A DNA stretch of 64,000 nucleotides, taken from positions 18,662,001 through 18,726,000 of the forward strand of contig OX597836.1 of assembly GCA_951406725.2 (NCBI GenBank). The letters are read 5' to 3'. The notes beneath the pieces are model-generated. The model saw nothing but the letters and a program-made list of their open reading frames with translations. It did no database searches and was not told the DNA's origin. Made by a program: the position numbers and the translations under genes. Below are positions 7,870 through 57,548 of this stretch, in pieces (position 1 is the stretch's first letter; every line of letters starts with the position of its first letter). The stretch is from Octopus vulgaris (taxonomy: Eukaryota).

Positions 7870-9300
7870 ATGTCAATGTAATTCATAATTACTTTGTTGT
7901 CGATCTGAAGAATTATACTAAAAGGGTTACTGATATTAATAACATGTCAGTGGAGGCGCAATGGCTCAGTGGTTAGGGCAGCGGACTCGCGGTCATAAGA
8001 TCGCGGTTTCGATTCCCAGACCGGGCATTGTGAGTGTTTATTGAGCGAAAACACCTAAAGCTCCATGAGGCTCCGGCAGAGGATGGTGGTGATCCCTGCT
8101 GTACTCTTTCACCACAACTTTCTCTCACTCTTACTTCCTGTTTCTGTTGTACCTGTATTTCAAAAGGGCCGGCCTTGTCACTCTCTGTGTCACGCTGAAT
8201 ATCCCCGAGAACTACGTTTAGGGTACACGTGTCTGTGGAGTGCTCAGCCACTTACACGTTAATTTCACGCGAGCAGGCTGTTCCGTTGATCGGATCAACC
8301 GGAACCCTCGTCGTCGTAACCGACGGAGTGCTTCCTCCAGTAACATGTTCAGCTGATATAGGCTTGGAATTTAGTCAAAAGAAATGTTCATATTTGGTTA
8401 TAGAACTAGGAAAGTCAGTCCCCCAAACACAAAACCTGTACATCAATGGTCTCTCTGTCTCCTCCGTTCCGCAAAAAGAATGTTACAAGTACCTAGGCAT
8501 AGACGAAAATGTTTCATATGAAGGCATTGTGAATAAAGATAGAGTGACCCGAGAATATTACACCAGACTTAGGAAAATATGGCACTCGGAACTCTCCTCT
8601 TACAACAAAACGATATCCCACGATGCATTTGCAATACCAGTGCTGGTCCCAACATTTGGGATGCTTGATTGGTCTGTAAAGGAAATCAACTTCATAGATA
8701 TCAAAATCCGCAAAATCCCAACAACAACTGGGAACTTCCACAGAAACAGTGATGTTGACAGACTCTACCTAAGAAGAAATGGAGGTGGTAGAAGCCTGAG
8801 ATGAGTGCAGACGGCCTTCGAATGTCGTATGGGCTCACTCAGGCTGCATCTGCTAAACAACAGCTGCAAAAATACATATATTAATGCAGTGCTGAAAAGT
8901 GTTTGGGACAGAGGGGCAAAGTTATGTACCATCATAAAGCTTTGCTGTCCTGCAGATATAAATATCTCTTTGAAAATCAAAGAAAAAGCGGGTATCTATG
9001 GACAACTGTTTCGAAACCTCCAGCTTCTATATCCAGACTATGAATTCATATTCTTACCAATAATAATTGGAACATTAGGCTTTGTTAGTAAATGCTTAAA
9101 GGAGAATCTGGATAAACTGGGATTTTCATATGAGAAATTGACCGGCTAATTCGTACATTACAAGTCCAATCTGTGAGTGGAACAGTAAAAATATGCAAGA
9201 CTTTTCTCAAGTTCCAAATGTCTGTATTAACTACATCCCATGGATGGAGCCTTGTATCTTTGTTGGAAACCGGCACCCTCAGTAGAAGATTTGTAATAAT
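7870..9300 (+). mobile_element. Decayed R4/Dong-clade (RLE-type) non-LTR retrotransposon: RT C-terminus plus restriction-like endonuclease, internally deleted
   Basis: HNYFVVDLK (degenerate YxDD region, ~7885), SADIGLEF..KC, YKYLGI, RKIWHSELSSYNK, HRNSDVDRLYLRRNGGGR, then CPADINI..KEK..Y..L and LPIIIGTLG; stops and frameshifts; CCHC knuckle region missing. Confidence 0.85.
7951..8340 (+). mobile_element. SINE family A (tRNA-derived), full length, inserted in the LINE RT
   Basis: A box tggctcagtgg, B box gtttcgattcc; TSD taacatgtcag / taacatgttcag (7940-7950, 8341-8352). Confidence 0.92.
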
Positions 9301-18850: not shown

Positions 18851-19049
18851 TACGGAGATATACTTGCATAGCAAGTGACTTGATCTGAGATCGTGTGCTG
18901 AAACGAAAACCATTGCAGCGTGGAAGGTGTTTATAAGCCATTTAAGAAACAAACAAAAACCGTTAGATTCACTTCAACATTTAAATTTAATTTGTCAAAA
19001 TATTTTCGTCGCTTTGAGACCACGACCTGTTCACTGACAAAATTCCGTG

Positions 19050-19050
<1 letters not shown>
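18851..19050 (-). mobile_element. Family F1: short non-coding Penelope-like/retrozyme-like element abutting (ATC)n/(ATT)n
   Basis: Single copy here; carries a well-formed hammerhead fold; flanked by trinucleotide microsatellites; extent approximate. Confidence 0.55.
18991..19041 (-). ncRNA. Minimal type I hammerhead ribozyme with G3-C8 core covariation
   Basis: Minus strand: tttgtca GTGAACA g gtcgt-ggtctcaaa-gcgac GAA AATATT T tgacaaa (7-bp stem I, 5-bp stem II, palindromic helix III). Confidence 0.72.

Positions 19051-19100
<50 letters not shown>

Positions 19101-57136: not shown

Positions 57137-57548
<412 letters not shown>

What the first reader, a model, noticed from the sequence alone, without database searches (positions are those of the whole stretch)
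18991..19041. Intact hammerhead fold with a swapped G3-C8 catalytic-core pair
Seen: the minus strand reads tttgtca|GTGAACA|g|gtcgt..gcgac|GAA|AATATT|T|tgacaaa. That gives a perfect 7-bp stem I, a 5-bp stem II, GAAA and a self-complementary helix III. Known: the canonical core is CUGANGA, C3 pairs with G8, and minimal type I hammerheads with palindromic helix III occur in Penelope-like elements and are thought to cleave as dimers. Here both positions 3 and 8 have changed so the pair is kept (G3-C8). Inference: this argues for selection on ribozyme function, and standard CUGANGA motif searches would miss the family.
Basis: partly seen in the sequence, partly recalled or inferred. Interest (0 to 1): 0.8.

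Follow-up and report, generated by a model that had tools for sequence, protein, structure and literature searches.

The report
Swapped-core hammerhead in Penelope retrotransposon
This is one of about 7,000 copies of the end repeat of a Penelope-type jumping gene, and it carries a hammerhead-shaped RNA in which two paired core letters are swapped (G3-C8 instead of C3-G8); related elements keep the pair as C-G or U-A, so the pairing is likely under selection and the RNA likely still cuts itself, though cutting is untested.

Summary
Observation confirmed. The minus strand at 18991-19041 has the layout of a minimal type I hammerhead, with G3-C8 in place of C3-G8; 100 shuffled windows gave no comparable hit. 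It sits in a 200-bp fragment of the pseudo-LTR of a Penelope-like element (PLE). Longer copies carry an RT plus GIY-YIG ORF, and one tandem copy places the motif about 55 nt upstream of the start codon. The swap is a family trait: 6,842 of 7,476 pattern matches are G3-C8 and none is C3-G8. Related PLEs have C3-G8 or U3-A8 at the same place, including a second family with a copy in this window. The 3-8 pair is kept in all 10 aligned motifs, some of them picked by eye. Lab mutants of this swap are partly active. Cleavage is not shown here: 0 of 30 sampled copies start at the cut site, and G3 is predicted to pair with U17. My literature searches found natural U3-A8 but no natural G3-C8; key papers were unavailable. 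This scan noted G3-C8 before in phages and protist PLEs (unchecked notes). Verdict: new variant of a known kind.

The parts
18851..19050 (-). 5'-truncated pseudo-LTR fragment of a Penelope-like element, inserted between simple repeats (5' junction ambiguous, 19050-19053)
   Evidence: 40 scored genomic matches of 191-200 bp at 94-100% identity, from 1,380 candidates; shared ends in 60 loci; continuity with an RT/EN ORF in long copies
19035..19041 (-). Stem I, 5' strand
   Evidence: pairs with 18991-18997
19028..19034 (-). Core box G3 U4 G5 A6 A7 C8 A9 (G3 at 19034, C8 at 19029)
   Evidence: family state in 6,842 of 7,476 pattern matches
19027..19027 (-). Extra unpaired G between A9 and G10.1
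   Evidence: an extra base here is described for PLE hammerheads (PMC4209133), although their consensus letter is H, not G (supplement); G also in 7 of the 9 other aligned motifs
19008..19026 (-). Stem II (5 bp, one U-G wobble) and 9-nt loop II; the loop differs between subfamilies
18998..19007 (-). G12 A13 A14, palindromic helix III 6-mer (A15.1...U16.1) and U17; predicted cut 3' of 18998
   Evidence: dimer pairing is predicted, not shown
18991..18997 (-). Stem I, 3' strand
   Evidence: its one common variant (A to G, 16 of 86 rows) keeps a U-G pair
18852..18941 (-). Start codon (18941-18939) and first 30 codons of the element's ORF; the frame runs on into the RT ORF in tandem copy L156
18851..18911 (-). 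About 60-bp 'tail' between the two alternative 3' ends of the family
   Evidence: two end points among 30 loci; a tail is a PLE signature in 10.1101/2021.04.23.441226 (30-40 bp there) and PMC11167929
19050..19159 (.). Flanking trinucleotide microsatellites (host DNA or slippage at the junction), not part of the element

Best explanation
The motif is the hammerhead-type RNA in the pseudo-LTR of a high-copy Penelope-like retrotransposon, fixed for G3-C8 instead of C3-G8, and it likely still self-cleaves slowly as a dimer. Shown: its place in the element (5' UTR, about 55 nt before the ATG, repeated at both ends of a roughly 4.3-kb tandem unit), its fixation in the family, and C-G or U-A at the same positions in related PLEs. 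Inferred: two motifs, for instance the 5' and 3' pseudo-LTR copies of one read-through transcript, pair through the palindromic helix III and exchange stem I strands. G12 acts as base, and the 2'-OH of nucleotide 8, held by the swapped pair, acts as acid, cutting after U17 to release unit-length RNA. Also inferred: activity is lower than canonical and may need the element's protein, and U17 (rather than C17) may have allowed the swap by weakening the inactive G3-N17 pairing. The window copy is a solitary truncated insertion made from uncut RNA and probably does nothing itself.
For: PLE identity: 530-aa frame with RT motif, CX3CX2C linker and Pfam GIY-YIG (E 9e-5) upstream of the repeat. 29 of 30 loci picked by the endonuclease carry the G3-C8 motif within 1.5 kb downstream. 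A 1,025-codon open frame exists. L156 has two 1.1-kb direct repeats, 98% alike, around the ORF. Fixation: 6,842 of 7,476; both positions changed in 21, none C3-G8; 79 of 86 rows chosen without regard to the core are G3-C8. Covariation: 10 of 10 aligned motifs pair 3 with 8 (C-G 5, U-A 4, G-C 1); whole-structure covariation score 0.90 against 0.25 in shuffles (0 of 500) and at most 0.25 for slid controls. Between subfamilies, 1 of 41 ribozyme columns against 13 of 74 loop/flank/UTR columns has a variant at 10% or more, and that one keeps a wobble pair. Published mutants: the C-G to G-C swap was the only strong rescue in this motif in a complete double-mutant scan (PMC9901934), and it partly restores a PLE hammerhead that needs its protein (PMC11167929).
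Against: No cleavage data. 0 of 30 copies picked by a downstream motif begin at the cut site, 25 of 30 reach upstream of it, and 15 of 30 start about 20 nt before the core (some rows are two arms of one insertion). G3 is predicted to pair with U17 and extend stem I (p 0.82 in the window copy, 0.67 in the young subfamily; 0 in the five C3/U3 relatives folded). Engineered rescue is only partial, and cleavage was dispensable for insertion in vitro in the anole PLE (PMC11167929). The subfamily test is weak: p 0.018 treats columns as independent, and 6 of the 13 variable columns are one loop II replacement. Four of the ten motifs were picked by eye, and the scanner required a pairable 3-8. G-C rests on a single lineage. 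Three relatives look damaged or weak (L160, L161, L169).
Confidence: 0.68

Rival explanations
1. The hammerhead fold is kept by selection but not for cutting: it is a binding or folding element for the PLE protein, or a translation or transcription signal in the 5' UTR, and cleavage is negligible.
For: Copies come from uncut RNA. Cleavage is dispensable in vitro and no reads end at the cut site in the anole PLE (PMC11167929). Naiad PLEs thrive without hammerheads (10.1101/2021.04.23.441226). PMC4209133 reports low activity and leaves other functions open. The G3-U17 trap is predicted.
Against: The 3-8 pair forms in the catalytically arranged core, and three different Watson-Crick versions are kept across relatives. 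All other catalytic positions (U4 G5 A6 A9 G12 A13 A14, A15.1-U16.1, H17) are intact in the family.
Confidence: 0.22
2. A dead relic: two chance changes in a founder element happened to be complementary and were amplified by hitch-hiking, with no selection on the motif.
For: The family descends from few masters, so fixation alone proves nothing. C8 is the most often changed core base (7% of 86 rows; 423 matches with G3 and a non-C8). Two transversions are needed, through an unpaired intermediate that was not found as a lineage.
Against: Subfamily-level changes avoid core and stems while loop II was replaced. Copies whose endonuclease is only 61-66% identical to the young one sit beside the same G3 repeat (both have a changed base 8). 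Given two changes, a complementary outcome is 1 of several possibilities, and relatives independently keep the pair.
Confidence: 0.09
3. A chance resemblance in AT-rich repeat DNA.
For: Folding z only -1.9; no Rfam hit.
Against: 0 of 100 shuffled windows give a comparable motif. Canonical C3-G8 hammerheads lie at the same position, before a similar N-terminal peptide, in related PLEs.
Confidence: 0.01

Closest known systems
Minimal type I hammerheads (min-HHR) of metazoan Penelope-like elements (Cervera and de la Pena 2014, PMC4209133; review PMC6765202)
   Same: Located in the pseudo-LTR; type I topology; extra base after A9; G10.1-C11.1; palindromic helix III; U-rich 5' and AU-rich 3' flanks; mostly solitary truncated copies.
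   Different: G3-C8 rather than C3-G8 (or the U3-A8 reported for Schistosoma Cercyon); extra base G where their consensus has H; stem I 7 bp, longer than the 4-5 bp given for Schistosoma.
Natural U3-A8 hammerheads (Perreault et al. 2011, PMC3088659; PMC4209133)
   Same: Compensated change of the 3-8 pair in nature.
   Different: U3-A8 needs two transitions and keeps pyrimidine-3/purine-8; G3-C8 needs two transversions and reverses the polarity.
Engineered C3G/G8C double mutants (PMC9901934; PMC11167929; PMC8495972; PMC3884650)
   Same: Identical base swap, partly active in vitro, including in a PLE hammerhead.
   Different: Laboratory constructs; here the swap is the natural, fixed state of a family with thousands of copies, in a U17 background.
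C-terminal EN+ PLEs with a CX2-5CxxC linker, Neptune/Nematis clades (Craig et al., 10.1101/2021.04.23.441226)
   Same: Single ORF, RT then linker then GIY-YIG; pseudo-LTRs, 5' inversions, one-sided tail, (TA)n insertion bias.
   Different: DKS where the paper names DKG; tail about 60 bp rather than 30-40; which of the two clades was not tested (no named references in my tree).

Membership tests
Hammerhead ribozyme | Three-helix junction with core U4 G5 A6, A9, G12 A13 A14, A15.1-U16.1 and H17 | tested here: met
   conserved in 86 family rows
Hammerhead ribozyme | Literal consensus C3 and G8 | tested here: not met
   G3 and C8; 0 C3-G8 among 7,476 pattern matches
Hammerhead ribozyme | Watson-Crick pair between positions 3 and 8 | tested here: met
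   G-C here; 10 of 10 aligned motifs pair
Hammerhead ribozyme | Site-specific self-cleavage after H17 | not testable with these tools
   no raw RNA reads available; 0 of 30 genomic 5' ends at the site
Hammerhead ribozyme | Match to an Rfam hammerhead model | tested here: not met
   the canonical PLE motifs were not run as a control, so this may reflect Rfam's coverage of minimal PLE hammerheads
PLE minimal type I hammerhead | Extra nucleotide between 9 and 10.1, G10.1-C11.1, palindromic helix III | tested here: met
   PMC4209133; the extra base is G, against H in their consensus
PLE minimal type I hammerhead | Located in the pseudo-LTR of a PLE | tested here: met
   L156 tandem; 29 of 30 endonuclease-picked loci
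PLE minimal type I hammerhead | Cleaves as a dimer | not testable with these tools
   modelled only; the active dimer lies 4-7 kcal/mol above the best fold, against 4-16 for five relatives
Penelope-like element (EN+) | Single ORF with RT and C-terminal GIY-YIG | tested here: met
   Pfam found GIY-YIG only, the RT was read from motifs and from homologues named as RT-domain proteins
Penelope-like element (EN+) | Pseudo-LTRs, 5' truncation with inversions, one-sided tail | tested here: met
Penelope-like element (EN+) | Spliceosomal intron in the pseudo-LTR | tested here: inconclusive
   a branch-point/acceptor-like stretch precedes the short copies' 5' end in 538 copies, but the one guessed spliced junction was in none of the held loci and no such joint was seen
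Neptune/Nematis clades | CX2-5CxxC linker between RT and EN | tested here: met
   definition
Neptune/Nematis clades | RT phylogeny with named clade members | not tested
   the tree holds no named references
Non-LTR retrozyme | Short non-coding tandem repeats, each with a type I hammerhead | tested here: not met
   copies are dispersed singles or inverted pairs and end inside a PLE ORF

The most novel reading that the evidence does not exclude
This is an undescribed natural, catalytically active G3-C8 hammerhead, fixed in a recently active animal retrotransposon. Its clade has used three Watson-Crick versions of the 3-8 pair (C-G, U-A, G-C). That would be evolutionary evidence that PLE hammerheads are selected for catalysis in vivo, and would mean that thousands of ribozyme copies per genome, and whole families, are invisible to CUGANGA searches.
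Probability: 0.45. Interest if true: 0.62.

Novelty: new variant of a known kind. Interest (0 to 1): 0.47.

Why it matters
The role of hammerheads in Penelope-like elements is unsettled: they cut poorly in vitro, were dispensable for insertion in one reconstituted system, and are absent from some successful clades. A family with near-intact ORFs that reversed a catalytic-core pair while keeping it paired, next to relatives with C-G and U-A, is a natural compensatory experiment pointing to selection on the active-site geometry. It also gives a ready test set (three natural pair states, one U17 background) and shows that search descriptors should allow any Watson-Crick 3-8 pair. It does not reveal new chemistry: the swap is known to work partly in the lab.

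Tried and rejected
Rfam: no hit at gathering score or among weak matches. Coding constraint on the motif: rejected, because the ORF starts 55 nt downstream and the young subfamily has a 1-nt shorter loop II. A surviving G3-G8 or U3-G8 intermediate lineage: not found; the 14 aligned G8 rows selected by state are spread over several subfamilies and share no diagnostic changes. Retrozyme-type tandem array: not seen. Expression and cleavage in vivo: no RNA holder listed on record and only contigs were available, so nothing can be said; loose-end consensus in runs of three other coded organisms shows the same G3...C8 core, and no core position was among the 40 difference rows shown (34 rows not shown). 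Splicing: not shown. The careful tree did not finish; only the quick tree is reported. Pfam PF26215 is not in the library. Four key papers were not held (Lunse 2017, Przybilski and Hammann 2007, Martick and Scott 2006, Hammann 2012).

Full report
Observation. The motif is present as described: 7-bp stem I, core G3 U4 G5 A6 A7 C8 A9, one extra G, 5-bp stem II with one wobble, GAA, a palindromic 6-mer and U17, with the predicted cut between 18998 and 18997. A descriptor with positions 3 and 8 free finds 2 hits in the window. In 100 shuffles it finds 1 hit in all, and none with stems this long. Folding energy alone is unremarkable (z -1.9), and Rfam does not see it.

What it belongs to. The genome G000 has 2.8 Gb in 227 contigs. 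It is probably an octopus; this is an inference from its size and from the nearest named homologue, an Octopus vulgaris protein. The 200 bp at 18851-19050 are a dispersed repeat. An exact 19-mer over the core occurs 6,842 times (control 0), and a 21-mer at the downstream start codon 10,936 times; inverted partial copies inflate both counts. Copies have two alternative 3' ends about 60 bp apart, frequent inverted partial copies at the 5' side, and AT-repeat neighbours. These are features described for Penelope-like elements (10.1101/2021.04.23.441226, passages).

Link to the ORF. A motif just upstream of the short copies (538 matches) led to long copies. These carry an ORF with an RT motif, a CX3CX2C linker and a GIY-YIG domain (Pfam E 9e-5). 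Many endonuclease copies are 94-97% identical, with open frames up to 1,025 codons, so the family was recently active (inference). In 29 of 30 loci picked by the endonuclease, the G3-C8 motif lies within 1.5 kb downstream; the other has an expanded microsatellite. L156 is a tandem: two 1.1-kb direct repeats, 98% alike, flank an ORF that carries a stop and frameshifts in this copy. The first repeat runs through the hammerhead into the ORF's N-terminus. The window copy is therefore a pseudo-LTR end: hammerhead, about 55 nt of UTR, ATG at 18941 and 30 codons.

The swap is the family state. With 3 and 8 free there are 7,476 matches, of which 6,842 are G3-C8. Both positions differ in 21: A-U 8, U-G 4, A-G 4, A-A 2, U-U 2, U-A 1, C-G 0. 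Of 96 copies chosen without regard to the core (86 distinct rows), 79 are G3-C8. Variants at 10% or more occur in 1 of 41 ribozyme columns against 13 of 74 loop II, flank and UTR columns (Fisher p 0.018), and the one in a stem gives a U-G pair. This test is weak, because six of the 13 columns are one loop replacement and the young subfamily is over-represented. Loci chosen by the core (L031-60, L102-122, L224-253) or by likeness to the window (L001-30) were left out of it.

Relatives. A scan of metagenome contigs with an alignment of the ORF and 23 homologues gave 14 loci. Eight show a hammerhead-like motif: four found by scanner (L162, L165, L167, L172, all C3-G8) and four by eye (L161 C3-G8; L160, L166, L169 U3-A8). 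L160, L161 and L169 look damaged or weak, and for L172 the full copy is the one on the minus strand. In L161 and L162 the motif precedes an N-terminal peptide resembling ours. A second family in the own genome, with a copy at window 57414-57458, has the same layout with U3-A8: 5,258 matches, 93 of the first 100 U3-A8. It has a similar N-terminal peptide, and one locus holds an endonuclease region 48% identical to ours. In the 10-row alignment the 3-8 pair is kept in all rows (C-G 5, U-A 4, G-C 1). The covariation score for this pair plus stem II is 0.90 against 0.25 in shuffles (0 of 500), and slid controls reach at most 0.25; stems I and III did not align well enough to be counted. A quick tree (the careful one did not finish) nests our ORF among these relatives, sister to P0006 (SH-aLRT 96). 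G3-C8 is thus probably derived, but no ancestral-state test was run.

Mechanism. From established hammerhead chemistry, the 2'-OH of nucleotide 8 acts as acid and G12 as base (PMC6155905, passage), and the 3-8 pair positions nucleotide 8. In a complete double-mutant scan the C-G to G-C swap was the only strong rescue in this motif (PMC9901934, passages). It partly restores an anole PLE hammerhead that cuts only with the element's protein (PMC11167929, passages; also PMC8495972, one passage). I infer slow dimer cleavage. The modelled active dimer lies 7 kcal/mol (window) or 4 (young subfamily) above the best fold, against 4-16 for five relatives, so it is no worse than they are. One cost is specific to G3: it can pair with base 17 and extend stem I (p 0.82 with U17, 0.99 with C17, 0 with A17). 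PMC3884650 (Discussion read) reports a G3-C8 variant as more active away from C17. None of the ten aligned motifs has C17, which may have permitted the swap (inference).

Against activity. Of 30 copies picked by the start-codon motif, 15 begin about 20 nt before the core, 25 reach upstream of the cut and none begins within 5 nt of it. Inserted RNAs were therefore uncut, as reported for the anole element. No run on record as RNA was listed and only contigs could be laid, so expression and cleavage are untested.

Novelty. Natural U3-A8 is in print (PMC3088659, section 8 read; PMC4209133, parts 1-3 of 4 read; supplement searched except file 1). Searches for G3-C8, G3C8, C8-G3, A3-U8, GUGANCA, C3G plus G8C, natural variant, octopus and Terminon returned no report of a natural G3-C8; the hits I opened were engineered cases, and one (PMC7618777) I saw only as a listing. 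Also seen: PMC6765202 (passages, part of section 11), 10.64898/2026.07.22.740005 (part 1 of 5), PMC10085705 (passages), PMC11014351 (term search, no hits). Lunse 2017, Przybilski and Hammann 2007, Martick and Scott 2006 and Hammann 2012 were not held; Lunse's large PLE collection could already contain G3-C8. Earlier notes of this scan report G3-C8 in phages and protist PLEs; they are unchecked, and none is from this genome.

Verdict. A real, well-placed new variant of a known ribozyme in a known class of element. Covariation supports selection on the pair; cleavage is unproven. Interest 0.47.

Noticed in passing
window 57414-57458, minus strand (N3 at 57451; repeat about 57260-57458): Second PLE pseudo-LTR family with a U3-A8 minimal hammerhead (extra G, 4-nt palindrome); 5,258 pattern matches, 93 of the first 100 U3-A8; linked to an endonuclease region in L269.
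   Followed up: yes
G000, position 8 of the core: Among the first 100 of 423 matches with G3 and a non-C8, 39 have G8, 45 U8 and 16 A8. The C-to-G share is high for a transversion, yet the aligned G8 copies form no lineage. Unexplained hotspot.
   Followed up: partly
5' ends of short copies, just upstream of window 19053: The base before the common start is G in 15 of 28 short copies where long copies have C or T. This would fit a reverse-transcribed cap and a transcription start about 20 nt before the core; a splice acceptor is the alternative.
   Followed up: partly
L165:4583-4633: Related PLE hammerhead with C3-G8 but U15.1-A16.1 in place of A15.1-U16.1.
   Followed up: no
L041:2750, L100:1164, L157:5773 (all minus): Canonical C3-G8 minimal hammerheads of other families in the same genome.
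   Followed up: no
L097:927-3365; L091:9050-9499 minus: A different RT plus GIY-YIG element lies next to copies of this family.
   Followed up: no
window 8199-8804, plus strand: A 201-codon frame that reads like a fragment of a non-LTR reverse transcriptase (label from recall, not tested).
   Followed up: no
L098:6040-7092 minus; L158:1-870 minus: A Tc1/mariner-like transposase and a C2H2 zinc-finger array in flanks of fetched copies (labels from recall).
   Followed up: no
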